Positions 4,027 through 63,725 of a stretch of DNA of 64,000 nucleotides are shown here, one piece after another. Position 1 is the stretch's first letter. Each line of letters opens with the position of its first letter. Position numbers and translations under genes: made by a program. This stretch comes from Perkinsus olseni (lineage: Eukaryota), in NCBI GenBank assembly GCA_013115125.1, contig JABANN010000078.1:1-64000 (forward strand). The letters are read 5' to 3'. Below the pieces are notes generated by a model. That model had not been told where the DNA came from and searched no databases. It saw only the letters and a list, made by a program, of their open reading frames with translations.

Positions 4027-5266
4027 CTAGGCAGCAAACGATGTCTCCGGAGAGGTACTTGTATTCTCGTCACCAGTCGACTGCTGCTGCTGCTGTTCCC
4101 CACCAGTTGCTTTGTCCATGGCGTCCACTGCTACACTAGTGTGCTTATAGTAGCTGACCATAGACAGCGAAGCATCACTGCCAACCAGAGCTGCATCCGG
4201 CTGGAAAAGGATGCGTCCACTAGTGGCTTGGAACAGACTACCAGTAACTCTATCCACACAGAGTAGCAGGCTGCCGACTAGACACAGGGATTGGATAGGC
4301 CGGCCGGTATCAAGCGGACACACTGTTAGCTCAGCGCCTGTCTCTGGTGCACCTGGGAGGCCTAGCGTAACCACAACAGTAGGGTTATTCTCGCATACGT
4401 AGTAGATCTTATCGCAAGTGTAATCATAGGCAGAGCACGCAATGACCGCACGCTTGTTTGTTGGATCCACATGGAAGGACGCACCAACTTGTTGGCCCGT
4501 CGACAGCGACCACCTGCGTATGGTTCCATCAGCCGAGGTTGAGATGACCTGCTCGTATTGAGAGCTGTAGTGCAAACCGGAGACGTACTCAGTATGGCCC
4601 AACATGAAGGCGTGTATGACTTGATAAGAAGGGTACAGCGACATGCGGATTTTCTCATCGCGATCAGCAGTAAGCAGATAGCCATGGGTTTGTACGCATT
4701 CCATAGCCGTTACTACAGCGAGGTGACCGAAGAGGAGCTCAGCACATCCCTGAGCCTCTGGTTCCATTGAGTTCGGAGGAGCCTGGGCGAACTCGATCTG
4801 TCGTTGACCAGTTTGACTTGTCGTCTCCACTGGTGTAAGTCTCCACACTTCGCCATATTTATCAGCGATAATCAAACGTCCATCAGGATCGAATACTGCT
4901 GTTGTTATCTTCTTGCGATGCGTGTAACGAGCAACGACTTGTTCAAAATCATCGTCCCACAGAACCACCTGAAGCGGTGCTCAAGTCAAAGCGTCGAGTA
5001 GATGATCACCCTAGGCTGGCGAGTAGTACCTGCTTGTCATCCCCCACAGTTGCCCACAGACCCCTGTTAGAATGGGCAATGGCTCTCACTGCATCAGTAT
5101 GTTCGCCATCAACCATCTTACCACGTCTAGTATTAGTAGCATATCTGAATACGTTCTTGCCTACTGCCCATACTACGACCTCCCCGCTGCTCATTGCAGG
5201 GGATTCACACTGCATGAGCGATGGATGCTGGGCGGCCGATGTAGCTGCTTCACCAACGTCAGCCAT
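4027..5266 (-). CDS. WDR4: tRNA m7G46 methyltransferase non-catalytic WD40 subunit (WDR4/Trm82)
   Basis: Family-typical motif LLFGHLAVVT...LLTADRDEKIRMSLYP...FMLGHTEYVS and IIADKYGEV; WD repeats; one short intron near 4970-5018. Confidence 0.88.
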
Positions 5267-9590: not shown

Positions 9591-10316
9591 TAGCGTATCT
9601 CTGCTCACATCCAGTGTCGAGTTGACCTTGTACCTCGCGGAGGCTATCATCCTAAGTTGTATCAGCTGTCATTACGAAGAACTCCTCCGGCTGAATACCT
9701 CAACGATGATGGTGGTGATTGCCGAGCCCTTCATTATTTGTGGTCCGTCGCGAGGAAATGAGTACCACTCGCTACAAGTCTGTCCCGTGGGCATGCGTTT
9801 TCATCTAGTCGCCTCGCAATTCACGTATTTCAGACCCCTGAGATTGGGGAGGAGTGGTGTGGCTGACCGCTGGACGGTGTAGTTTCCTTGATCTCTAGAG
9901 GTGGGCACCGGAAGATAAAAATCATGGTTTGGTACGATTCGGCTCGATGGCATCTAGATTGTTTCGGTGAGTTGGGTTCGCCGAGTTTGGCTCTAGTAAA
10001 GTCGGCTGGCCCAATCGTAGGCCCCAGACTTGGTCTGTGAGGTCAGAAATGCGATCGAGAGATGTCATGCCGCATAACATTCATGATGACTTCGACGAGC
10101 CAATTCGGTTCTGGCTCCGAAATCGCAATTAACGCTTCCACGGTTTGACTGGAGAAGTGGTGAATATAAAGCATGTCCAGAACCAGGAGATAAACCACTA
10201 CCACATTGGGACACTTCGAACGCGACAGAGCTTTGGAACAGCACAACAACAGCGATTGATCTCACACTCACCAAATCGCACGCGATCATGAGTCATGATT
10301 CATGACACCTTGGTCC

Positions 10317-11107
10317 TCAGCTGCTCTTCATCAACTCGGCAACTATGTCGCGTCTTGCGTCATGGGTGTCCTGTAAGAAGTTTATGAAGCCTTCGACACC
10401 TGCTTCATAGCCTTCCGGGGAATTTGTCATGATGACGTTGAGCAGTGCTTCGCAGCGAGGAGCAGGCTTGAGATAAGACGGGATGGTATCTCTCATATGG
10501 TGGAAAGGGTTAGCAGGTCCCATCTTAGTCTCGACGACGTCCGTGGGGTTCATAGTAAGTTGCATCGCGCCGGGGAAGTTGTAGGCCACCAATGCCAGAG
10601 CCTTAGGAGAGGGAGCGGTCCTGAAAATGACGCAAGGGATACTGATGGTACCTCGGTCAAGTTGCTTAAAGAAAGTTACACACAACCATACGAATGATGA
10701 AGCGAAGACCGCTGACGAAGCTGACTTTATCTCCAAGCTGTGGCCTTCTTCATAGCGTTCGATCCTGGCTGAATAATCACTATATTCGAATTTGAACGTC
10801 AGTTTTGTTCCTCCTTTACCGTACTCGAATTCACGCTAGTTCTCTCTTCTTCTGATCTGTAAAGGGCAGTGAACCCTGCAGTGACTGAAGCAGACCTCAC
10901 ATTCACTTTCTTCTTCTGTGGGTCGTCAACAACGCTGTCTGGAGGTAGAGGCTGAAAGTGCAACGAATGGCCCCAGGATGTCTCAGCGTACCTCTTCAAC
11001 CCGAGTCGCACCTCAGACACCATGTCCACACCGACGTAGGGGGGTCTCAGGGAAGCCATCGCAGTCATGAACCCCACCAGAGCAGGGAAGCGGATGAAAG
11101 TAAGCAT
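10317..11107 (-). CDS. Putative secreted lineage-specific protein (spliced or frameshifted)
   Basis: Signal-peptide-like start MLTFIRFPALVGFMTAMASL; two ORFs in different frames (10799-11107 and 10317-10736). No known domain recognised. Confidence 0.4.
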
Positions 11108-11627
11108 TGAGCAGGGAAAGGGAAGTACTAGTAGAGCGGAATGCAGAAAACAGGTAGGGGGCAGTTGAAGCTGAGACTGGAAGCGCGATTTTCATCTAAG
11201 GTACTGTACCGAAATAAACGCGCGCCCGGGAAATCGAAGTATTAAGCGCGCGCGGTTCACGGAATACTCAAATCCACACAGGCTGTTCTGTGAACTTCTT
11301 CTGGATTCCGAAACGGAGAGCCCAGAAATCTCGTTCGGAAAGCCGACTCAAGAATGTATTCTGAGGCGCTTCGGAATGGAACCTCAACGTGTTCTCCGAA
11401 ACGCATTGCTGAATCCAATATCTGAGTGAGAAGTGTTTTTCGCCGTGCAACTGAAGAGAGAAGTCTGACAGAGTACTTCATCGCATTTTACTATGATCCT
11501 GAGACATAGCTCACTGGATTCGTTTGACGTGGCCTCGGCTTCGTACACGCTTTAGCTGAAGAGAAACAGCTCGTACGCACGCACACCCGAAATGATCGGA
11601 TTTTACATAAATACATGTCGCAATGAC

Positions 11628-11768
11628 CGTCTCAGAGTGACGTGACTGGGGCGTCGCGGTGACCCCGTCTCGTAGACCCCGTCTCGTAGACGCCGTCTCA
11701 GAGTGACGTGACTGTCGCGTCGCGTCGCGTCGCGTCGCGGTGACCCCGTCTCGGAGACGCCGTCTCTA
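11628..11768. repeat. CpG-rich compound repeat built on CCGTCTC, GAGTGACGTGACT and (CGTCG)n units
   Basis: CCGTCTC recurs about 6 times; ccgtctcagagtgacgtgact twice; cgtcgcggtgaccccgtctc twice; a short (GTCGC)n run. Confidence 0.8.
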
Positions 11769-11774
11769 GATGAC

Positions 11775-12547
11775 GCGAAGTCCAAGGCCTCTACCGTCGC
11801 TACCCAGCTGCCCCTCAAGTCTTGCATTGACTGCAGCGAAGCCAGCTTGACGTGATTGGGGGCAACACCGGTGATTCCAACGGTGTTGTTGCCTTTTGAA
11901 GCCAAAGCCTTCGCGCATGCGGTACCGTGGAAAGTATCATTGCCCAGCACGTGGGTATCGTCGACGAAGTTCCAGGTGCCATAGAAAGGTGTGCCATCCT
12001 TCTTGTAGAAAGTGCCTCTCACAGGGTAGAGATCGGGGTCCGAGAAATCCACAGCGGAATCGATGACAGCAACACGGACGGGGTCGCTCCGCATGTAGGG
12101 CTTGGCCATCTCCCATACCTCTCCCATTCTCATACGTTTGAGATGGTCTTGACACCAAGCCCCTGCGTCGTTAACGTCAAGCTCGGGATCTAGCCATAGC
12201 GACTCAGTCGCCTCGTTAGGGCCACAGTCAATATCATCAATGTGGGGAAGAAGGCGGCTAACGTCATCAAGGTACTTGCATAGCTCCTCGTGTGTAACGG
12301 AATCGGGAGAGGTATGAACCACCTGAACTCGGACGTTGTTGAGAGTTTTCACCGTTGCCTCATCGAGGAAGTCAGCCATCTTCATCATTTGGGCGTCAAG
12401 AGGAATGCCAGCCTCCCTCAGATGGTTAGGGAGGGTGCGGACATCTATGAACATACCGTTAGACATGGTAGACAGAACAGTCTTCTCGTCATAGCGGGTA
12501 GTGGCCTCGGCGAAGGTGTAGATACCAAAAAGAGTTGCGATGCGCAT
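11775..12547 (-). pseudogene. Subtilisin-like (S8) protease, N-terminal half (inverted segment)
   Basis: Signal peptide MRIATLFGIYTFAEA, prodomain, catalytic Asp (VAVIDSAVD), catalytic His (FHGTACA), GITGVAP. Homology stops at EALDFA, after which the frame reads into repeat DNA. Confidence 0.88.
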
Positions 12548-12661
12548 GGTAGTAGAGAAAAACGAAACCTAGTGACTTGAAAGCTGAAAGCGATAGAAGA
12601 TTGGTTCGTCATCGGGGAGTACTCGCTACAAGCTCCTCCCGGGGCCTTGATGTGGGGTTAT

Positions 12662-13235
12662 CTTCGCCATTGAGATCAACGTTGAGGTCATTTCGATGTC
12701 GTTGGGCGGCTTCACGTGGGAGCCAACGCGCCGCATGCTCCGTCGAGTACTTGATGAGGTTCAGCGCAATGATATTGTACTTGTTGTCGCGGCTGGTAAT
12801 GATGGGAAGTATGCCTATAACTATTACCCATGCTGGTATGGTGGTTCTGAATCTATCTGCGTTGGTGCTCTCAGTAACGAGCAAGGAACTTACATGGCTA
12901 TGTTCTCCAATTTTGGTGAGCAAGTCGATATTGCTACGTACGGCAAGGACATATGCATTGGTCTCAAAGAGGATGGAAGCCCTCAACTCGCAACCGGAAC
13001 ATCCATAAGTACCCCTATGGTTGCCGGCTTTGTGACTATCCTCCGTTCTATGGGCATCCAGCCTAGTCAGGTCAAGTCTCTACTGGTTAACAATGCTGAT
13101 CCTTTAGACCACGTTGGTAGCGCTATACGACCAGGTAGTGGCGGCCTCAATGCCGTGAGGACCATTCGGGCCGCTATACATGAACTACACAGGCAACTCA
13201 GCCCTGCCGGTTTACGAGGAAATATACAACTTTAG
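12662..13235 (+). pseudogene. Subtilisin-like (S8) protease, C-terminal half
   Basis: FAIEINVEVISMSLGG, oxyanion Asn (VVAAGND), ICVGA, FSNFG..VDIA, catalytic Ser (GTSISTPMVAG). It has no N-terminal half in the same orientation. Confidence 0.88.
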
Positions 13236-13450
13236 ATGTCGGCGCTATCAATCAGCCGCCTCATTCCTTCGTCGAAAAAAGAACGGAAGTCTTTTTTCTT
13301 AACTGGATTTTCCTCCGCTCCTTGGGTCCACTCCACCAACCCATAGGACGTTTTTAGCACTTCCTACAGTGCAGGACTTACACCTCTCTTACTTGTACGT
13401 TTACGAGTCTTGTTCTTAAGTTATGAGAGAGATGGGGTTGCAAATTGCAG

Positions 13451-13536
13451 TATGATAATGATATTGCAACTTGCAATATCATTATCATAACGATAATGAT
13501 TTCCTTTCACTCACTGTGAGTGAATGATCATTCACT
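13451..13536. repeat. Cluster of perfect AT-rich palindromes
   Basis: TATGATAATGATATTGCAA-C-TTGCAATATCATTATCATA (13451-13489); TTCACTCAC-T-GTGAGTGAA (13506-13524); AGTGAATGATCATTCACT (13519-13536). Confidence 0.9.
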
Positions 13537-14199
13537 GACTAGGATGTCATAAACGAGGCGATCTGCAATAAGGATTCCTAAGCGTACAGTGTCAAATTTT
13601 AGTGTTGTTCCCTCTTCGTGTTTGCGGTCAAGTACGGGGGGTTGACAGAGCTCATATGTCATCGTCGCTCGATCGATAATCAGCCGTGACAGCTAAATGC
13701 TCAGGGAGGCGGTATCATTCTGAATGAATGACTCATGCATTTGCGTTTGAGCCGTCATGGACGGTCTGTAGGAATGACGACAACAGCCGACCACTGCATG
13801 AAGCGCCTTTCTCTGTGTTTTCCGTGTTTGTATTTGGCCCGCACGAATGCGTAGCCACCGCACTGTCAGGCTAGTCGTCCACTCGATTCCGCACTTGGTC
13901 GCGCTTCAGAATCGGTCGGGTGGAAGCTAGATCTCCGCTGTCATCGGACCGATGAGGCTTGCTGTGTTGCGTGAGTCTTTAAGTGAGTGGTATTGCTCAT
14001 ATTGTAGGACTTGCATTCATCGTATTTCTACGGAGGAGTTGTTTGTGCCCGTCCTGGTGAAGACGCGCGACGTCCGCGAGCGTAACCGTGCGAGTACTGC
14101 GTCCTCCTCAACTGGACTGTCGACACAACGCGCCATGGGCAACTCTAAAGGAACATGTTGCGTAGCTTCAGCACATAGTTAGCACTCGCTGCGGCACGG

Positions 14200-17100
14200 T
14201 CAAGAATGAGGACACATCCCTCCAAGAAAGAGGCTCTTAGACTTCCGCACATTCTCTACCAGTCTGGTGTACTGTGGTCGCAGCGTCTCTATGTCGACTG
14301 GGAAGGCTGCCGAGTCAAAACCATAGGACCGAGGAGGATTCCAGTTGTCAACATGACGTATACCAGACCAGAGCGCCAGGTGATTGAACAGACACCAAAT
14401 TGGACACTCGTTCTCGTGAGCCTGCCTATCATGCCACAACTCGAGGTAGCCGCCGTACTTGGGCAGGAAGGTAACATAGGTCGCCCCTGCTCCATGTGAG
14501 GTTATGAGGATATCACTACTCGAGACAGCAGCGATTTGGTCCCGGGGGCTCAGGGTTGCGATATCAACCGCTGAGACTGATACGTTGGCGCTCATCTTGA
14601 GCATATTGATCAGCTCAGCTTCGTTCTGAACCTGCACGTACAGTTGACGTACAATCAAGGTGATGCGTTCTAGAGCTGCTCACCTGCCTGGTCACGGTCC
14701 CGCGACGAGCCAGGAAAAGCACCCGCAGTTTATAGACTTCTATGGGCTTGTTCGTCAAGTTGTAGTGCGATAGTATCGTGTATGCCAGCCCGACGGGAGC
14801 CGCCAGTGGGTGTGTGCATCCTGAAGTAGTGGCGACAGAGACTAATGCAAACGCTAGTCTGGCAAGGGGATAGTCGAGAAGCACCGAGGATACTCGAATA
14901 AGTGCAACCCGCCAGCTTACGGATAGCCACTTCGTAGTGTGTCGCCTGGAAAGGTGTGTTGTGCATGGAGGGTGCAACAATAACCGGCCCACTGAGTAGT
15001 AGGGCTTCATCTTGGATGTCGCCGATGGTGAAAACCTCTCCTGCCAGGGCGTTGATGAACTCAGTGTGCCATACTGGTATATTGTTATCAAGGAAGATGA
15101 GTCTGACATCGGGCCCCGGCTCTATGCCGAAGACCAACAGAGATTGGTATATGTTGAGATAGTGCATATAGCTGTGCCAAAGATTCCTGTCCTCTCGCTT
15201 CCCGTTACTCTCACGCCAAGTCAACACAGTTGCACCGCTCAAGACTCGTGCCGATGGAGCCAGAGCACTCGCCCAATCGGCTGACTCTACGAAGTCCCGC
15301 ACGTAATTGCCCGTGAAGAGGTTGTCATAGTCGATCGTTGCTACTCGCACGTCACACTGGCCGGACAGGAACCCAGGCTGGTAAGTGAAGTATGCGTCTG
15401 GCGTCCCACTCATCCATGCCCTGTGTTTGAGACGAAAGCTCTTCCGGAGCAGTCCTGGCTTCAACTGTATCTTCTCTCCCCAGCACAGATTGGCGTTATC
15501 GGCCGCAACGGGATGGAAGGGGTTGTTAGCTACGGTGCAGTAGAACTTAGTCGCCGCTCCGTCGCAGAGACGCAGGGCTTTCGAGAAGAAATTGTCGTAG
15601 TAGGTGGTGTCGATATAACCGCAGTCTGGGTCACGTGGCTGTCCATCGAATGGGAGTATTGTAAGCCGGGGATCGGATATTTGACCCAGCGTCGGCGAGG
15701 CGGCGCATCCCCCACTGGAGGTCAGCTTTGGGTATTGGGGCTCGGCTACAGACCTGAAAGAGTATGGGAGGGAAGCATAACAACAGCATCCTAGAGAGAG
15801 GCTCTCATGGAATACCTCGGACTCATGTTTGGGTTCTCTGATTGGCATTTCACGTAAGATACGCTGCCTTTATTCTCATCTGCAGTAACTAAGATCGAAC
15901 TGTGTTATAATAGTCTACCTCGGCGCAAAAGTACTTCGCAACGGTCTCGCTGATTCTTTCACGTAGCACCTTTCCCCCTCGGCGTGCTGCTCGCACTGGA
16001 CACCCGTGCAGCGGCTATTCAGATTTGAGCAGTGGTGGAGGGCCGCCTGAAGCATTGTCCGCTGACGGGTGGTAACATCGATCGTCGGTCACCGTACTAT
16101 CACCTCCAATGGGAACCATCTATGGTCTCTCTCACAGGTCGAGGAGTAGCACCATAGGGCGTTGGGGCCAGACAGCCCGGTGGAGTTGAGCCTCTTGAAT
16201 CTGGAAAGCTCCTGCAGAGCGGCCAACTCCGTCTCGTCGTGTGGCAGAGTGAAAATGGCCTGTGATTCCCTGCTCACCGTTGGCCTCTTGGCCCGGTTAA
16301 GAGTGAGTCTACGCGATCTTGAGGACATTCCGTATCCATCGGGCTGGGCCGTCTGTAGTCCACACAGCCATCGCAATCGCAATGTAACGAGGTCGAGCCG
16401 CACCTGAGAAACGTCGGCTGCTACCATGGGCGCCCAAAAGGGGGGGCAAGGGGGGCGGACGCCCCCCTCACTCAGCTTCAGAGGGGAGCACTGCCCCCTA
16501 CTGACTTTGCCCCAGTGTACGCGTGCGAGCACGCATGCTCAAGGGGGGCACCGAACCGCAGGTGATGTGTGAGGCGCAATTTCGTAGTCATTTCTTACTC
16601 AATGTAGATTGAGTTGAGTGGTCGTCTCATGATTTGCGAGTCACAAACCGTGAATCTTGGAAGCTTTATCGTTGCAGTTGTTAGATCACGGTCTCATGCA
16701 GGAATCCATCGATCGCATGTTCAACCGTGCATTGCCGCGGAGGGGCCAGCCCTCTTCGAGCTCCTCCCGCTCTGCCTCGGTTCCCGCTCCTGCACTATAC
16801 CCGGCAAGCGATCTAGCTGATGACTCATCAGTGATGAGTGTGGAGACTGTGATGACCTTAGACCTTAGAAAGACCTAGACTAGACCTAGACTAGACCTAG
16901 ACTAGACCTTAGAAAGGTTGTCAATTCGTTCGTTCTCGCCAATCGTACAAGGATGACACACTTTAAGCCCTTCGACCTCTCCTAGGTCTTTTTGAGGGGC
17001 GCGAAGCTTTCTCTCGTACTTGATAGCGTGGCACGCTAAGCGTGCGAGTCTGCGACTACCGCAGCCCGGTGCAGGCTGTTCAGCTCCGGCTTATGTTTGT

Positions 17101-44810: not shown

Positions 44811-46831
44811 CGTCGATTTGCGGCGATAAAGGATGGCGATATGTTGGCACTGATGCGAATTCGAACAAACCGATCGTAAATCACGATTACGATTCGAAAT
44901 GAGTCCTATCAAACGCCTTCCCTCCATCAGGTAAGTATGAGGTAGAGAAGTTCCTATTGAACTTTCCACCAGCATGAGTTCCAACTCAGACTTCTCGACT
45001 CTATGGCAGAGTCATCCGTTTCACCCGCTCACTATAATCCGATCTCCCCAACACCGCAATGACGCTACGCGGCCACCATGAGGCAGTGTGATTCTGGGCG
45101 TGAGGTTGGCATCTAGTGATCGAGTGGGATGCTGAGAGTCCACTAGCAACCATTTGAGCTGCCTTCGATGATGAACTAAAGCTCTGAAACTGCGGCTCCT
45201 CTGTAAGGCTCACCCAACAGAGGACATGCGTGACCGTATGTGCCAGCGTTTCAATAGTGCATTTCCTCTCAACCTTGCGCTGTAAGTTTTAGACTGGCTC
45301 ATCCAGAATCTGTCTCTGATGAGGCTCCCAATATCGCGGAACTTCGAGTCGCGAGGCTCCCACGACATGCACTCTCTGCCCCCTTCTTCACAAGGCGCAC
45401 AGAGTAAACCCATGCCGTACTCAGTGGCGGTTCGCAGCGCGATGATATGGTGACGACAAGAAATGAGAAGCCATCCCATGGGACCTACTTTTTCAGCAAA
45501 TCCTGAACTTCGGACGCGTCCTTCATCACAACCGCTCAATGTCAAAGGAAAAGAGGAACTGCGTCGGAGAGGCATCGCACAAAACGAAGTCCAGCATAGA
45601 GTGGTCCCTGCATAGTGCTGGGTATTGGATTCCACGTTCTGATGCGATTAATGGGGGGGATTCAGGCTTGATCACTCGAAGCGAGCAGCAGACTCCAACG
45701 AGGCTCCAATCGGCGCCTCCGAGAAGAACCCCACCATGAGCTGCTATCAACTCAACATTCCAACAGATCAGCACAAGCTGAGATGCGACCCCGTGCTTTC
45801 AGACAACCAACTGGCCTTTGGATCGCTCTAAATCCCAAGTCGCATTTGGTGGGCTCGCCAGTGGCCCGTCTGCGATGAAATTGGAAAGTTTCGGCACAGT
45901 CGACACAGTGTGGGATTCGCTAGTCGCTAGTTTCGTGTTCGTGTACAGCCCCCGCAGCCGTGGGAGGCGGATTCTGCCGGGAGGAGAGAACATTCCCCAG
46001 CTGACGATGACCTCGATGCTCTGAGAGCAACGTTCTTTGGCTTGACGAACAGAGCCTATTCAAAAGGCTGAACTAATCCCCCTCAGAAAAGTACGTCGGT
46101 GATGCTAGTCCAAATAAGCCGTACTGTCGTAGGCGTTGGACTTTAAACTCACGCACAGACGGATACTGGTCGCAGACGGCGCCTGGGACATCACTGATGT
46201 CGCGGTCGCCCTTTTGTGCGCTCCGGGGGAGCCGCGGACCAGAACACAAAGGCGATCCACAGAAACACGACGGCCGAGTCGTTCCCCTGGTGACCCTCGA
46301 AAACTTGCCTCAGAACAGGGTGACGTCACGCCAGCCGTCGAAGTTCTAAATATTTCAGTCGCCGTGCGAGTCGGGTGTTGCGAACTGCTTGCTGTGACGG
46401 GACAGCGGATAGATGGAAAGAGCGTCACAGAAATTTCACGCTCGTTGGATGGGCATCCAGAATCCCGCGGTCCCAATATCTCCATACTTCTTTCTCGATC
46501 GTGACTCATGCTCTCGAGCGTGAGTGTGGGCTTCCAACTGGAATAGACCTCTGTAGTTCTCCCCGATGGTCTATCCTATGCTCTATCGGGGGAGGGGGGT
46601 GACGAATTAGCTTGGCACGCTTGCACAAACTGGACAGAATGGGGCGCAGTAACAGCAACGATAGTGCAGCGATGTTGTGGGAGAAAGGATCGGGGATCCG
46701 AAAGAGAAGTTAGTCCACTCAGTTAGTGGGCTCCAGCACTAAGGGGAAGGTTTGGTCCTGAATTGCTTATTGCACGTGTAACTGACCAAGACATCTCCCC
46801 TCCTCAGTTGATAAGCTCAATAAAGGTTCCA

Positions 46832-47212
46832 ATGCCCCCTCTCATCGGTGTTATCCTCCTCCTCGCTTGTAGTGATATATCGGCAGCTCAGCCGTCCGAT
46901 AAGTATTGTGGTACTACCTCAACTTTATTCGGCGATGCTACGATCGATGTCACAATAACAAGCCCAACCACCTTTGACATCTCGGCTACGTTCACTCCTG
47001 CGGGGGGTACTGCAAGCGGCACTGAGACGGGCGTTAGGTTCACGTACAACCCCTCAACGGGCGACATCACCGTTCAGGACACAGACAAGCTGCAGGAACT
47101 GATTGATAAAATAGGAGCGCCCATCAGTGCAGCTGACCTCGCTAACCTCAAGTATGACGGGAACAATATTATCGTTGTGAACTTGGGTAACTTCGTTCTG
47201 AGGCCATGCTGA
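46832..47212 (+). CDS. Small secreted protein (126 aa), copy 1
   Basis: Signal peptide MPPLIGVILLLACSDISAAQ; intronless; near-identical paralog at 62298-62678. Confidence 0.75.
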   Translation: MPPLIGVILLLACSDISAAQPSDKYCGTTSTLFGDATIDVTITSPTTFDISATFTPAGGTASGTETGVRFTYNPSTGDITVQDTDKLQELIDKIGAPISAADLANLKYDGNNIIVVNLGNFVLRPC

Positions 47213-56824: not shown

Positions 56825-59247
56825 ATGTTACTGCTATGGTTCGTTTCCGTCGCATCAGCGGCCGTCACTGACCCTACCGCAGCTCGACATGAGTTCCTTA
56901 AAAACGGCACTGTCGAGGTCGGCCAGTAACAGTCAAACAGGCGTGGTTGACGTGCCTCTCCAAAGTTTGAGTGAACGCTACCTCTCAGATCGTAGAGTAC
57001 GCAGTCCGACCGGGGTACTCAGCCGACGATGATATCGAGATCTTCTTTGGCGAATATCGGATCGCATGTGAGAGCGGCATCCCAATCCCTGGATCGGAGC
57101 CCTTGCGAATTGTCAGCATGGTTCGTGTCGATGGCACCGTGGAACATTTATCATGGGGGTCTTCAGTTCAAATGCAGAAGGACCAATTACACGTGAGCTT
57201 CGATCGTTTCGACCAACCATCGCAGTGGCACCCGGCCAATCGCACCTCAGTTTGTAGAGAAATGCTAGAAGAGCTTTCCCTATCGCCACCCAGAGCAGAA
57301 GCGACGGGCAGCGGTGATCGTCTATCTGCATGCTATCTTGAGCGCTGCAGGTATACTATTGACTATAACGCTAAGTTTGACTTCAACATAACACACTTCT
57401 TGGTCCCGACAGAACAGTATCGAGGAGATGTAGACGAGGATGGCTTCCCGACAGGCACGTCTCTGATCTACAGCACACGTGTCTGGATCAGCCGTGATAC
57501 TACACACAATCCACTCAGCACTCTTTGTCCGCCCCTGTCGCCCGCCGGCCAGTACAGACTGGACGGTACCTGTCTTCAGGTCCGGAAGTCCTGGATGCAA
57601 TTCGTACCCTTGCCAGTGTTACGCAACATAACTCCGAGTTAGACAATGAAATGCAGAATATGACGAAATTTGAATACGGCTGGAGTGTCGTCAAGGCCTT
57701 GAGAATGGCCCTCTCGGGTCAGTACAAAAACCCGAGAATCTACATAGTGTGTTCGGACTCAGCAATGCTGTAAATCTCACCCAAGCCTCTTCCGCCGACT
57801 GTCTCATCGGAGGTGGTCGTGTGCAGCAAGCACGAATTCAAGCCAGGGTTGCGTTCACCCTCCTCGGTATATCCCTAATTGTAACACAACAACTCTCTCA
57901 GCGCAATTCGCGAGTCGAACCTATTAGTACTGGTTGATAGTATGACTCGTCTCGGTACTATCGATAAGATGGGAACCGTTAATTTCGTATCCCTGGCTTC
58001 CTGCAGGCGATATGATCCCCGGACTTGAGTGGCGTAATTTTGGTATACTCAGACTCAGAGACTTCTGGCCACACGAGTACACCAATCGAACAAAGGTCAC
58101 ACGAGTCCTCCGCGCGCTGAACAGAGTTAGAGTTGGCAGGTTGGCGTGATGACCGGGCAGCAGTTCGACGAATTGAAGCGGTGGTTCGTAGAGGACTGGG
58201 CTAGACATAAAGACACCTTCGACCCTATCACTATCATCGATGCAGAAGCCGGGACACGTGTCTGGATGAGCCGAATGTGTCACGACCTGGTTGAGTATGG
58301 CCTCAAGAGAATGGCAGAGATGGGGGTGAGTAGGCCCGCAGTGGCCGCCTCCAAATGCTTGGAGGCACTTCATGGCTGCTTTTTGTGTCAATGCCGCTTC
58401 GATCTAGCACAGAAAGAAAACAATCGTGTGTCATTGTTCGTGTGCTGGCACCATGCCCAGCATCTCCGACCCCTAGGTTTCTCTGCGACCTGCCAGACCC
58501 CTGTTGAGAGACCACATCACAGTGTACGTGAAGCCTGGCTCATTGAAGCCCCTCGATGTCCGAGGCAACGCTTTCAACCGGAGGGCAGTTGCAAGATTCA
58601 TGCGAGTCTACCTCTCGTTCATACCCAAGCTGAGAGACCAGTTCATCCACGCCCGCGATTTCCTCAGAAAAGTGCCGGAGAGGCGGTTTTCTTGGCGCGC
58701 GACGTTTCCTTCAGGTCCTCGCCATGGACCTCACTCCAGTAGGCTACTTGATGGGTCAGTATTACGAGGCTGCGGTGGTCTCTCCTCTGGTCAACTACTG
58801 CTACGTACCATTGCGGATGCCCCGCCTGCTCCGGAACGGCACAGTCGTCTTCGGCGAGGTTGATGCCATGAAGCGCAATCGTTCGCTCTGCGCACTCAGA
58901 AATGATGATGTGGTGAGGCTCTCTGGGGTATGGCGAGCCCTCCGTTTCCCCCTCGTTACAAATTAAGGCGTATTTTGGCGTTGTGCCGTAGATGAAACCG
59001 GCAGCTCGTGGTCTCTCAGCTTTAGCTCGACTCGACTCACCGGCCTTACCTCCCGAACCCCCCTCAGGAGCTGGACAACGTCACCCTCACGCTTGAGGAC
59101 CGTCTCATCATGCTGGAGAACTACATAGATGTATTCTTCAACGCCCCCGAGCGACGTCCTCACTACCGTTGGGCGTTCATGACGATATCGGGTACGGTCT
59201 TATGTGCCCTCCTCTCTCTGGCGTACCTCGTACCTAAACGTGTTTGA
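56825..59247 (+). CDS. CLN5-like permuted papain-fold (NlpC/P60) protein with C-terminal TM, paralog 1
   Basis: Signal peptide MLLLWFVSVASAAV; DDDIEIF; IYHGGLQFKCRRTNYTYTIDY (His codon 57152-57154); VGVMTGQQFDELKRWF; WMSRMCHDLV (Cys codon 58278-58280); YYEAAVVSPLVNYCYVPL; TM before LVPKRV*. Confidence 0.7.
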
Positions 59248-59600: not shown

Positions 59601-61500
59601 ATGCAATCCCCTCGGCTGCTTTCTGCCAGCCTGCATGCCCTGGTGATCCTAGCGGCAGCCACTGAACCAGCACGGCATGAATTTCTCAAGGAGCGCACAA
59701 TAGAGGTGCTGCTGAGTTGCTCGCCTCCATTCCCGTGCAGCGTTGCCCCTCGCGAGTGGCGCATGCTCTTTGGCAGGTCCTCGAGTACGAGTCCTCGCCT
59801 GACTATACCCTAGACGATGTCATAGATATCTATGTTGGGGAGTATAAGGTCGCAGGTAAGCACATCGTTGGTGTGTTCGGAATCCGCAATGTAGACGAAT
59901 GAAAAGGAGAGTTTGAGGTTTACTATTGCTGGCTCCCTAGCATCTTGGTCACAGCGCTATCGCAGTAGTTGCTACGCGTCGTCCATCCTTCTGTCAGCAT
60001 GGTTCGTGTCGATGGCACCGTGGAACATTTATCATGGTGGCCTTCAGTTCAAATGCAGAAGGACCAATTACATGTGAGCTTCGATGAATCGTTATGAGGA
60101 GCTGAGAAGACCTGCGGCGGCCTGGCTTAGGTACACTATAGACTACAATGCCAAGTTCGATTCTAACATAACGCATTTCTTGGTGCCAACCGAGAAGTAC
60201 GAGGGTCAGCTCGACGACGACGGTTTCCCTACTGGTGGGCTTTGGGAAGTCTGTGGGGTTTTGTAGGGATCGGTCCCAGGTCCTGAGGTTATGCGGGCGG
60301 TGCGCACCCTTGCAAGCTTGGTGACGGGAGAGAGCCCCGATTACAGCGAGGACCACATGAAGAACCTTACCAAGTTTGAATATGGCTGGACGTTCATCAA
60401 GGCTCTCCGAATGGCGTTATCGGGCGAGTGCTGCCCAACCATACACTGGCCCAACCTCGATCTCTCAGGCGATATGATACCCGGCCTGGAATGGCGCAAT
60501 TTCGGTATTCTGCGATTCCGAGATTTCTGGCCCAAGGAGTACAGCTCCAGGGCCTTAGTATTGCCATGTTGACGAATCGTCGAACCCTCGCCTGCTTTCA
60601 GGTTGGCAACATGACAGGGCAGCAATTCGACTCCTTCAAACGGTGGTTTATCGAGGACTGGGCCCGCCCCAGAGACACCTTCGATCCCGTAACCGTCATC
60701 CAGGTCGAGTCAGGCGAGCGAATATGGATGAGCAGGATGTGTCATGATCTAGTCGAGCACGGCCTCAAACAGATGGTCGAAATGGGTGTATCTATCGACA
60801 AGACCGAGTGGTCCCGGAGGTTGCAGATGTCAGGTTTCTCTCCGCGCCAATCATCCGGTATTTCGTGATCACATCCCAGTTTATGTGAACTACATCAAAC
60901 CCCTTGACGTTCGAGGGAACAGCTTCGACAGACGAGCGGTCGTGAGGTTCCTCCGCCTCTACATGTCTTTCATACCGCAAATGCGGGAACAGTTCATCCA
61001 CTCGAGGGACATGCTCAGGAAGGTGAGCCATAATAGGGAAGTCTCAGGATCCAATCTCCTCGACTCAGGCTTTGGCCATGGGCCTCATGCCAGTGGGCTA
61101 CTTCATGGGGAGCTACTACGAGCTTGATATCGTTCCACCACTGATTAACTACTGCTACATCCCCCTCAACATGCCCCGTCTGCTGCCCAATGGCTCGGCT
61201 GTCTACGGGACAGTTGATGCGATGAACCCTAATCGGTCACTTTGTGCATTGCCGAATGTTGATGTGGTAAGTCTGGCATCTACAACGTTGGAGATGTTGA
61301 CTGCTCCCCAGGAGCTCGGCAACGTTACGCTCACGATCGAGGACCGTTTGATAATGTTGGAGAATTATGTGGACCTGTTGTTCAACGCCCCGGAGAGATT
61401 CGAGCACCCGAAGCATCGCAGCGTTTTCATGATGGTCACTGGAACGATTGCATCTGGTGTACTTCTCATCGCGTATTGGGCACGAAAGCACAAGTGCTGA
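59601..61500 (+). CDS. CLN5-like permuted papain-fold protein with C-terminal TM, paralog 2
   Basis: Same exon chain as paralog 1; His codon 60033-60035, Cys codon 60740-60742; TM VFMMVTGTIASGVLLIAYW followed by ARKHKC*. Confidence 0.7.
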
Positions 61501-62269
61501 CTCGACAGTGAAGAGGCTGCCTTGCATGTGAATCGCATGACGCGAATCTGCTATTGCTGTTGGACTATTGACTCGCGTTCTCGTAGTTTGTTTGGAGTAG
61601 AAGCGCTACGACGTAGACAGCCAGGTGTTGCTAGGGGAGCGGTGGCTCGCAGCTGCACCCTGCCCCACGATTTCTATGAGAAGAGCCTCTCACTTAGCAG
61701 AGGAGAGCTGGCGAGCTCGATCAGTCGGGCGAGTTGAATGGGTCGAGTGAACGCACTGACGAACCTCCTTCGCATGTCGCAGCCCGCATTAAACGCGTTC
61801 ATACAGAGCCGCGCCTTAGAACAGAAAGGCGCTTGACAGTGACGTCGTCGCGAGCATCTTTTCATATTCGGCCATGGACCCTCGTTTCAAGGCAAAAACT
61901 TGATCTAAGTTGTCAAGCCGCGAGCCTGATTTTTCGTTTGCTTGGTGAAAGGACATGCAGTGTAGGAACAGCGCGGAGACACCAGTAGCAAAAAAGCCCA
62001 AGTGCAGTATGGTGACATTATAGTGACGACTGTACGCTATGCATTAGCTGCCTCCCGGTCCAGAGCTACTCAACTGTTAGACTATCATCGCTGCCATTAC
62101 CTTCACTGCTACTGCGTATAATTAGTCTTGGATAACCGTCTGACCTCATTCTGGCCTCGCACTCGCATCCGTATGCGTTCTAGATTACCGTTCGCTATAA
62201 GTCGAATGACGGGCTCGATCCCTCCAATAAATGTTCGCAGACGCGCGCGGATGAGTTGGCAAGACATTT

Positions 62270-63725
62270 CCCTCAGTTGTTGAGATCAAGCGTTCAGATG
62301 CCCCCTCTCATCGGTGTTATTCTCCTCCTCGCTTGTAGTGGTCTAGTGCTAACTCAGCCGTCTGGTGAATATGGTGGTAATGTCTCAACTGTATTCGGCG
62401 ATGCTACGATCGATGTCGCATTCACAAGCCCAACCACCTTTGACATCTCGGCTACGTTCACTTCAACGGACGGAGGAGGAAACGGCACTGAGACGGGCGT
62501 TAGGTTCACTTACAACCCCTCAACAGGCGACATCACCGTTCAGGACACAGACAAGCTGCAGGAACTGATTAATAAAATAGGAGCGCCCATCAGTGCAGCT
62601 GACCTCGCTAACCTCAAGTATGACGGGAAGAATATTATCGTTGTGAACTTGGGTAACTTCGTTCTGAGGCCATGCTGAAGAATCGGTTGCCAGGAGTCTC
62701 CTATAGTGATTTAATCTTCTTGATTGTCTTCCAATGTCTCTTCCAGCCAGTCGGTTATCGGTCGGATGTCACTTCTTGAAAACTAATCATGCGTCTCCAG
62801 ACTAGGCCCACACATGCCTTTTCAGCAGTCTAAGCCGTACCCATCTCAACTCTTTTATGTGCGATGTTTTCGATGAGTACCACCATTGCTTCGAAGTCTT
62901 ATCCTCATCCCACGTCACTTTCGCATCATCTTTCAATGGTCTAGTCCTCGTATATGAAGTCTGGCTATTAGTCAGGGATGAAGCTTCTTGACCGACTTAA
63001 TGAAGTCGGACTTTCAAGTTACGTTCAGAGGCGAGAGGGGCTTGAAGACAAGTCCATCATCAGTCTGTGACGGTGAGTCAGTGTACTTGCTGTGTCTGCA
63101 AGTCATTGACTTGCGTCTGCAATGCAGATTGACATTGTTCCGTCTTTCGCAAGGCACAAACAGACCTCACGCCCCTGAGAAACTGGGGTCAACCTCCTGC
63201 TGATAATGGCACAATGTGTGAGTTAGACTTGTCCTTAGTGGACATCTCTCCGTGGCAGTCTCAGTGTGTATTAGATCCTGTGACAGAATCCTGCTCAGTG
63301 AGCTGGCAACAAAAAAGTCCTCAGCATAGCACAACCCTCCTCGCAGTGTCCGTCAGCAACACCTCGAACCATAAAGAGGAGGGCTACGGGTGGATGACTC
63401 GAGTAGGGGAGAGTCCACAACCCGGACCCCATTGTGGAGCAATACGGATCAGCACTGCGACGGACGAGGAAAGATGAAGTCTTCACTCTCATTCCCTGTC
63501 GTCCGATCACCTCACCGAGCGATAAGCTGATGAACTGATCTCCTCTACCGGAGAGTATCGAGACTCGCGTTGAGATGCTCGCGTTCCCCAAGAGGAATAC
63601 AGCGTTAACACCGCTATGAGGTGGAAGGTACCGCAGTATCGCGGCCTCTCCCATCTCATTCTAACTCGTACTGACGAGACTGCACGCGTTATCATACGTT
63701 GATATATCCAGAGGTTTGTTAACAA
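62270..63725 (+). repeat. Segmental duplicate of 46800-48077 joined to 50631-51060
   Basis: Collinear matches across the gene, its 3' flank (GAGAATCCT versus CAGAATCCT), then TG(T/C)TCAGTGAG...CACCTCGAACC...TTTGTTAACAACT. Confidence 0.8.
62298..62678 (+). CDS. Small secreted protein (126 aa), copy 2
   Basis: Paralog of 46832-47212; the 3' half is almost identical. Confidence 0.75.
   Translation: MPPLIGVILLLACSGLVLTQPSGEYGGNVSTVFGDATIDVAFTSPTTFDISATFTSTDGGGNGTETGVRFTYNPSTGDITVQDTDKLQELINKIGAPISAADLANLKYDGKNIIVVNLGNFVLRPC

What the first reader, a model, noticed from the sequence alone, without database searches (positions are those of the whole stretch)
11775..13235. Subtilisin gene split by an 893-bp inversion; flipping it restores an intact protease
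Seen: the N-terminal half (signal peptide, catalytic Asp and His) is on the minus strand, 12547 to 11775, ending GAG GCC TTG GAC TTC GC. The C-terminal half (oxyanion Asn, catalytic Ser) is on the plus strand, starting C TTC GCC ATT GAG. The segment is bounded by a 6-bp inverted repeat, GCGAAG (11775-11780) and CTTCGC (12662-12667). Inverting between them gives ...EALDFAIEINVEVISMSLG..., a 1341-nt in-frame ORF (446 aa) with no base lost or gained and no stop in either half. About 115 bp of 5' flank is carried inside the inversion. Known: S8 proteases need all of D/H/S, so the present arrangement cannot encode an active enzyme. Inference: this is either a recent microhomology-mediated inversion, a twin-priming-like retrocopy, an assembly artefact, or a reversible ON/OFF DNA switch for a secreted protease. 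A switch is the most exciting and the least supported of these.
Basis: partly seen in the sequence, partly recalled or inferred. Interest (0 to 1): 0.85.

Follow-up and report, generated by a model that had tools for sequence, protein, structure and literature searches.

The report
Small inversion breaks a parasite protease
In one lineage of a shellfish parasite, a short piece of DNA has flipped once and cut a protease gene in two; the flip is real, but it looks like an ordinary fixed gene-breaking mutation, not an on/off switch.

Summary
An intronless S8 (subtilisin) gene is split by a balanced 893-bp inversion bounded by a 6-bp inverted repeat. Its closest proteins are labelled Perkinsus olseni, a mollusc parasite. 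It is not a misassembly: two sequencing runs from two studies (98x, 199x) each give the inverted form in one contig with no difference, and a second public assembly carries the same junction. It does not behave like a switch: those runs show no second orientation, a diverged sample shows only the uninverted gene beside the same flank, 6 of 6 diverged proteins spanning the break are uninverted, and the repeat has no recombinase-like arms. Retrocopy features are absent. Best reading: a single microhomology-guided inversion, fixed in one lineage, that knocks out this gene and parts it from a likely upstream element. It is 1 of 44 S8 loci; 10 others are broken by stops or frame changes. Rare flipping below contig resolution is not excluded. 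Known kind of mutation; modest value as a lineage marker.

The parts
11775..12667 (.). Inverted segment, 893 bp, balanced (no base lost or gained against natural uninverted alleles)
   Evidence: (opposite-strand joint 11775/12668 in run X7, 6 letters fit either side)
11775..11780 (+). Left arm of the 6-bp inverted repeat (microhomology); already present in the uninverted allele
12662..12667 (+). Right arm of the 6-bp inverted repeat
11777..12547 (-). N-half of the S8 gene: hydrophobic N-terminus, pro-region, catalytic Asp163 (12059-12061) and His207 (11927-11929); the frame runs on into flank DNA to a stop at 11603 (314 aa, annotated in NCBI as P0123)
12548..12661 (-). 114 nt of 5' flank carried inside the inversion; pyrimidine-rich with AG 23-38 nt before the ATG
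12663..13235 (+). C-half of the S8 gene: oxyanion Asn (12798-12800) and catalytic Ser (13002-13004); first Met at 12696 (179 aa, P0126), no signal peptide
11600..11774 (.). Imperfect repeat tract rich in GTCTC/GAGAC words, left outside the inversion; likely upstream regulatory element of the gene family (inferred)
10317..11107 (-). Left neighbour gene (small family of unknown proteins); now downstream of the N-half on the same strand; a gene model in a second assembly splices the N-half to its last exon (10317-10619)

Best explanation
A one-off, balanced inversion that used a chance 6-bp inverted microhomology, one arm about 120 nt upstream of the start codon and one inside the catalytic domain, and that became fixed in one lineage of Perkinsus olseni. 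SHOWN: the inversion is real, balanced and derived; the microhomology pre-existed; each sample examined has one orientation only; Asp/His and Asn/Ser are now on opposite strands, so no single frame encodes the enzyme. INFERRED: it arose by microhomology-mediated end joining of two breaks or by template switching at a fork (these cannot be told apart from the sequence); it is recent (both halves still open); it also parts the start codon from a GTCTC/GAGAC-rich upstream element; the outcome is a null allele of this subfamily member in a large protease family that loses members often.
For: Runs X1 (study P1, depth 98) and X6 (study P2, depth 199) each hold the whole 4201-bp stretch in one 16.4-kb contig, 0 differences, no joint. 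A second assembly's protein P0128 is identical to the N-half over 257 of 257 residues and has the same junction tail. Run X7 (266 differing places) shows the opposite-strand joint 11775/12668 at depth 100.8 and loose ends at 11780 and 12667 that fit the uninverted gene beside the same flank; all its depth at 11819 (100.8) is one contig. 6 of 6 diverged proteins that span the break are continuous, 2 of 2 identical-haplotype proteins are inverted: orientation follows haplotype, as for a single origin. Microhomology P=0.0016; no extended homology (P=0.26) and no dyad arms (1-4 of 13 matches). 44 S8 loci: 29 continuous (25 with D/H/N/S), 10 broken by stops or frame changes, 4 partial, and only this one split between strands. 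GTCTC/GAGAC words: 39 at -250..-50 of 30 paralogues against a shuffle mean of 14.6 (0 of 1000 shuffles reach it); the window tract is the densest cluster in 64 kb (7 in 170 nt) and none lies in the carried flank. Microhomology-mediated mechanisms are a described source of balanced, gene-breaking inversions (PMC4576756, passages).
Against: Logan contigs drop rare variants, so low-frequency flipping would not show. X1-X6 are all flagged as possible sources of the window. Clean junctions and two undecayed halves are also what a recombinase switch would give. The gene has no close paralogue in this genome (best half-match 50%, long branch) and was under purifying selection (11 of 17 listed N-half differences synonymous), so its loss is not buffered by a near copy. 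The genome does encode tyrosine recombinases (9 matches). The 10 other broken loci were not checked against reads and may include introns or assembly errors. The motif test uses related paralogues and only 15 of 30 have a hit.
Confidence: 0.87

Rival explanations
1. Reversible on/off DNA switch (intragenic inverton) for a secreted protease, flipped by a recombinase or by repeated recombination at the 6-bp repeat, rarely or only in the host.
For: Balanced junctions, both halves open; both orientations exist in the species; tyrosine recombinases are in the genome; subtilisin-type secreted proteases are targets of oyster inhibitors in P. marinus (PMC2868825, passages), so switching would make sense.
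Against: No second orientation in X1 or X6, none inverted seen in X7; orientation tracks haplotype; repeat only 6 bp with no arms, against 11 bp in the validated thiC inverton (PMC10028968, passages); none of the 9 recombinase matches is on this contig and no serine resolvase was found; 0 of 43 other S8 loci are split between strands.
Confidence: 0.03
2. The inversion broke the protease but made a new expressed product: the N-half (secretion signal, pro-region, half a catalytic domain) read into the flank or spliced to the last exon of the left neighbour.
For: The model P0128 splices the N-half in frame to the neighbour's native acceptor. Run X9 (guessed RNA) has pieces 11746-12111 and 10322-10498, in the two exons of that model, at depth 2.8 and 2.9.
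Against: P0128 is a prediction; the window's own annotation chooses a different end (P0123). X9 may be DNA, no X9 contig joins the two exons, and about 60% of the laid stretch is in open frames, so 3 of 3 pieces in frames is unremarkable. A half subtilase fold is unlikely to be stable (general knowledge).
Confidence: 0.07
3. Assembly artefact.
For: Draft assembly of 3353 contigs.
Against: Independent de Bruijn contigs of two runs from two studies reproduce it letter for letter; a second assembly has it; 6 runs hold a share of 1.00 of 224 sampled words, of which about 5 are expected to be junction-specific.
Confidence: 0.01
4. Twin-priming retrocopy with an inverted 5' part.
For: The layout (inverted 5' part followed by sense 3' part) and the lack of introns fit that pattern (mechanism recalled, not from a call).
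Against: The uninverted gene sits beside the same left flank in X7; no source copy in the genome; longest A run 6 nt in 300 nt after the stop and no direct repeat over 6 nt; 29 paralogues are also single continuous frames.
Confidence: 0.01

Closest known systems
Gene-breaking inversions made by microhomology-mediated repair or template switching (reviewed for humans in PMC4576756)
   Same: Balanced, short microhomology at both junctions, one breakpoint in coding sequence, separation of coding region from upstream DNA, possible hybrid transcript with a neighbour, polymorphic in the species.
   Different: Small (893 bp), in an alveolate parasite; the repair pathway is not identified here.
Bacterial intragenic invertons (Chanin et al., PMC10028968)
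   Same: An inverted repeat pair with an arm inside a gene; one orientation gives two ORFs, the other one ORF.
   Different: Those are defined by both orientations within clonal samples and longer repeats ascribed to invertases; here 6 bp, no arms, one orientation per sample, orientation tied to haplotype.
S8 subtilases (thermitase, subtilisin BPN'); perkinsin-type secreted proteases of Perkinsus
   Same: Pfam S8 over cut-off; D/H/N/S motifs; uninverted allele aligns to thermitase at E 3e-25.
   Different: Broken in this lineage; whether this paralogue is perkinsin-like, secreted or involved in disease was not tested.
Scrambled genes of ciliates (inverted segments joined at short pointer repeats; recalled, no call)
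   Same: Alveolate, inverted gene piece, short repeat at the junction.
   Different: No unscrambled somatic copy is seen in the same samples; other strains simply carry the uninverted gene.

Membership tests
S8 subtilase | Peptidase_S8 profile over the curated cut-off | tested here: met
   N-half 33 bits, C-half 71.3 bits, uninverted P0125 115.4 bits; cut-off 21.8
S8 subtilase | Asp, His, oxyanion Asn and Ser in order in one reading frame | tested here: not met
   All four present but on opposite strands in the window; met in P0003, P0124, P0125
S8 subtilase | Signal peptide and secretion | tested here: inconclusive
   Hydropathy only
S8 subtilase | Proteolytic activity | not testable with these tools
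   none
Microhomology-mediated inversion | Short microhomology at both junctions, beyond chance, present before the event | tested here: met
   6 bp, P=0.0016; present in the uninverted allele of X7
Microhomology-mediated inversion | No long inverted repeat for homologous recombination | tested here: met
   0 extension, flank similarity not above chance
Microhomology-mediated inversion | Single origin (orientation tied to one haplotype) | tested here: met
   2 of 2 inverted proteins identical in the N-half; 6 of 6 diverged proteins uninverted; small sample
Microhomology-mediated inversion | Enzyme or pathway (end joining against template switching) | not testable with these tools
   Ku is present; nothing more tested
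Site-specific inverton (phase variation) | Both orientations within one clonal sample | tested here: not met
   X1, X6 inverted only, X7 uninverted only; contig resolution, rare flips not visible
Site-specific inverton (phase variation) | Recombinase-sized inverted repeats or dyad arms round a core | tested here: not met
   6 bp; dyad matches 1-4 of 13
Site-specific inverton (phase variation) | A recombinase that acts on the site | tested here: inconclusive
   9 tyrosine recombinase matches on other contigs, 0 serine resolvase; action not testable
Twin-priming retrocopy | Poly(A) tail and target-site duplication | tested here: not met
Twin-priming retrocopy | Source gene elsewhere and empty-site allele | tested here: not met
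   one copy in G000; uninverted gene at the same site in X7

The most novel reading that the evidence does not exclude
The segment flips back at a low rate, or only in the host, at the 6-bp repeat, so that the lineage keeps a secreted protease off in culture and on in a minority of cells: a recombination switch inside a gene of a eukaryotic parasite. Contig data cannot exclude flips rarer than a few percent. A milder novel reading (about 0.07) is an inversion-born chimeric transcript with the neighbour gene.
Probability: 0.03. Interest if true: 0.85.

Novelty: new member of a known kind. Interest (0 to 1): 0.24.

Why it matters
As it stands it is a clean natural example of a gene knocked out by a small balanced inversion, and a presence/absence difference in a probably secreted protease between lineages of a shellfish parasite: one lineage has no intact copy of this subfamily member, the other has intact copies, apparently two on one contig. 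That makes it a usable lineage marker and a candidate for comparing strains, but it does not reveal a new mechanism. Only if raw reads showed back-flipping of the same haplotype would it become important, as a DNA switch in a protist.

Tried and rejected
Search for longer homologues of the N-half: none of 2109 candidates passed (weak). Repeat tract as a hairpin-prone fragile site: folds no better than shuffles, z=0.00. Tract as a dispersed recombination site or mobile element: one DNA match; a 14-nt word has 11 matches at one mismatch against 28 for the control. Tract as a scar of the event: rejected, X7 has it too. Extended imperfect homology round the repeat: P=0.26. Repair at RNA level by trans-splicing of the halves: a GT follows the left junction but no AG precedes the C-half at the matching place, and the X9 piece reads through that GT. 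Expression: no RNA holder is on record; X9 is only guessed RNA and its lack of cover on the C-half is no evidence. X9's piece across the left junction has 29 letters beyond the repeat, under the tool's 31-letter rule unless the 6 shared letters are counted, so it is not counted as a third study. Only 4 of 11 listed runs could be laid. L075 and L077 gave no hit with P0125 and are left out of the 44 loci. One C-half difference (13205) was left out of the synonymous count; only 40 of 266 X7 differences were displayed. The tree is the quick tree, without bootstrap. Earlier scan findings were not available. PMC8062965 (passages) held nothing on repair pathways in Perkinsus. No structure prediction or complex job was run. 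Paper searches listed no paper on this inversion; only listings were seen except for the four papers cited, no supplements were read, and the library lacks most subscription journals, including genome papers whose supplements may bear on it.

Full report
Observation. The window is contig C3101:1-64000 of a 39.9-Mb eukaryotic draft in 3353 contigs. The minus-strand frame 12547-11777 gives 257 residues without a stop and the plus-strand frame 12663-13235 gives 190 residues and a stop. They match successive parts of Pfam Peptidase_S8, positions 4-97 and 106-276. The hexamers at 11775-11780 and 12662-12667 are exact reverse complements and do not extend. The segment is 893 bp, carries 114 nt of 5' flank, and the coding parts sum to 1341 nt. 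On continuous paralogues of the same genome the end of one half and the start of the other project to the same or adjacent residues in most cases. Six or more bases of microhomology occur at 0.16% of random inversion junctions in this window.

Organism and ancestral state. The closest database proteins are labelled Perkinsus olseni. Six of them span the break point (P0003, P0124, P0125, P0127, P0129, P0131) and all six read straight through it; they are 88-94% identical to the halves. With the halves they fill 446 alignment columns, the halves sharing one Phe. P0125 aligns to thermitase at E 3e-25; the break lies after the catalytic His and just before the strand that leads to the oxyanion Asn and the Ser. 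So the uninverted gene is ancestral, and the window's arrangement cannot encode the enzyme in one frame.

Real or artefact. Eleven runs were listed; six hold a share of 1.00 of 224 sampled words and are flagged as possible sources of the window. Four were laid on 10300-14500. X1 (sample S1, study P1, depth 98) and X6 (S3, P2, depth 199) each hold the whole stretch in one 16.4-kb contig with no difference and no joint, and no second copy of the gene was laid. A second public assembly (contig of 79,195 bp against 79,201 bp for the window's proteins) encodes P0128, identical to the N-half over 257 residues and with the same junction tail. The inversion is therefore in the organism's DNA.

Switch or fixed. 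X7 (S4) differs at 266 places, shows the opposite-strand joint 11775/12668 at depth 100.8 with 6 letters fitting either side, and loose ends at 11780 and 12667 that fit the uninverted gene beside the same left flank; at 11819 all its depth is one contig of that depth. No laid run shows both forms. Orientation follows haplotype: 2 of 2 inverted proteins are identical in the N-half, 6 of 6 diverged ones are uninverted. A working switch should put the same haplotype in both states. Bacterial intragenic invertons are recognised by mixed orientations in clonal samples, and the validated thiC repeat has 11 positions (PMC10028968, passages). Here the repeat is 6 bp, flanks show no further homology (P=0.26) and no dyad symmetry (1-4 of 13). 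The genome has 9 tyrosine-recombinase matches, none on this contig, no serine resolvase match, and Ku. The limit of this test: Logan contigs drop rare variants, so flips in a small minority of cells would be missed.

Retrocopy. The layout resembles twin priming (recalled), but the gene is single-copy in G000, stands uninverted at the same site in X7, and has no poly(A) or target-site duplication.

Family context. tblastn of P0125 on 45 fetched stretches gave 44 S8 loci: 29 continuous (25 with D/H/N/S, 4 with one catalytic residue replaced), 10 broken by stops or frame changes on one strand, 2 fragments, 2 cut by short contigs, and this one, the only locus split between strands (the 10 were not checked against reads). 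Gene loss is thus common in the family. Against simple redundancy, the uninverted alleles form their own long branch with no close paralogue in G000 (quick tree), and 11 of 17 displayed X7 differences in the N-half are synonymous, which points to purifying selection before the break. P0003 and P0129 share a 170-kb contig with accession numbers two apart, suggesting two uninverted copies in another assembly. In P. marinus, subtilisin-like ESTs carry predicted signal peptides and oyster plasma holds an inhibitor of subtilisin and perkinsin (PMC2868825, passages); nothing here shows that this paralogue has such a role.

The left flank. The tract 11600-11774 is not a scar (present in X7), folds no better than shuffles and is not a dispersed element. 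It is the densest GTCTC/GAGAC cluster of the window (7 in 170 nt). The same words are enriched 50-250 nt upstream of 30 paralogue start codons (39 against 14.6; 0 of 1000 shuffles; less so at -500..-300, 24 against 13.7), though only 15 of 30 have a hit and the paralogues are related. In the uninverted geometry the tract lies 133-266 nt before the ATG; none of the words is in the carried 114 nt. I infer that the inversion also parts the start from an upstream element.

Possible by-product. The N-half now points towards the left neighbour gene. The model P0128 splices it to that gene's last exon, and X9, guessed to be RNA, has low-depth pieces in both predicted exons. No contig joins them and X9 may be DNA, so this is a lead only.

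Mechanism and verdict. Most likely two breaks, or a stalled fork, were resolved by annealing at a chance 6-bp inverted match, giving a precise exchange; such mechanisms are a described source of balanced inversions that disrupt genes (PMC4576756, passages). The allele then became fixed in one lineage. Confidence 0.87; chimeric product 0.07; switch 0.03; artefact and retrocopy 0.01 each. Eight paper searches listed nothing on this locus. It is a new instance of a known kind of mutation. Interest 0.24.

Noticed in passing
window 10317-11745; P0128: A gene model in a second assembly fuses the inverted N-half to the last exon of the left neighbour; weak, unjoined X9 cover in both exons.
   Followed up: partly
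window 12789-12791 (Ala43 of the C-half): The window keeps Ala three residues before the oxyanion Asn, as in thermitase, while 6 of 6 uninverted alleles have Pro there.
   Followed up: no
P0003, P0129 (170-kb contig of another assembly): Apparently two uninverted copies close together; alleles look mosaic, as from gene conversion.
   Followed up: partly
G000, 44 loci (L003-L086): Large family of S8 genes in single continuous frames, many in tandem clusters; 10 broken, 4 with a catalytic residue replaced.
   Followed up: partly
window 11629-11766 and paralogue upstream regions: GTCTC/GAGAC words cluster 100-200 nt upstream of S8 start codons; candidate family promoter element.
   Followed up: partly
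window 13451-13489: Perfect 19-bp inverted repeat with a 1-nt spacer 215 nt after the stop; one X7 contig skips 13425-13648.
   Followed up: no
L087-L091: Nine tyrosine-recombinase matches in this eukaryotic genome, probably of transposable elements (inference); two confirmed by Pfam.
   Followed up: partly
window 11571-11608: A separate 304-bp contig in X1 and X6 matches these 38 nt with 4 differences; not found by a DNA search of G000.
   Followed up: partly
window 10799-11107 and 10317-10835 (-): The left neighbour's two frames overlap, so it has a further intron or a frame change; its 3' part has 6 other matches in the genome and no Pfam family.
   Followed up: partly
window 46727-47212 and 62184-62678; 58131-58742 and 60380-60868: Two pairs of similar ORFs about 15 kb and 2 kb apart; three of the four were scanned and have no Pfam family.
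   Followed up: no
window 4027-4980 (-) and 14200-14604 (-): A WD40 protein exon and a weak glycosyltransferase-61 match (below cut-off).
   Followed up: no
P0003, P0124-P0131: NCBI names these proteases 'suppressor of the cold-sensitive snRNP ... mutant brr1-1', while UniRef calls them subtilisin; the first name does not fit their Pfam family.
   Followed up: no
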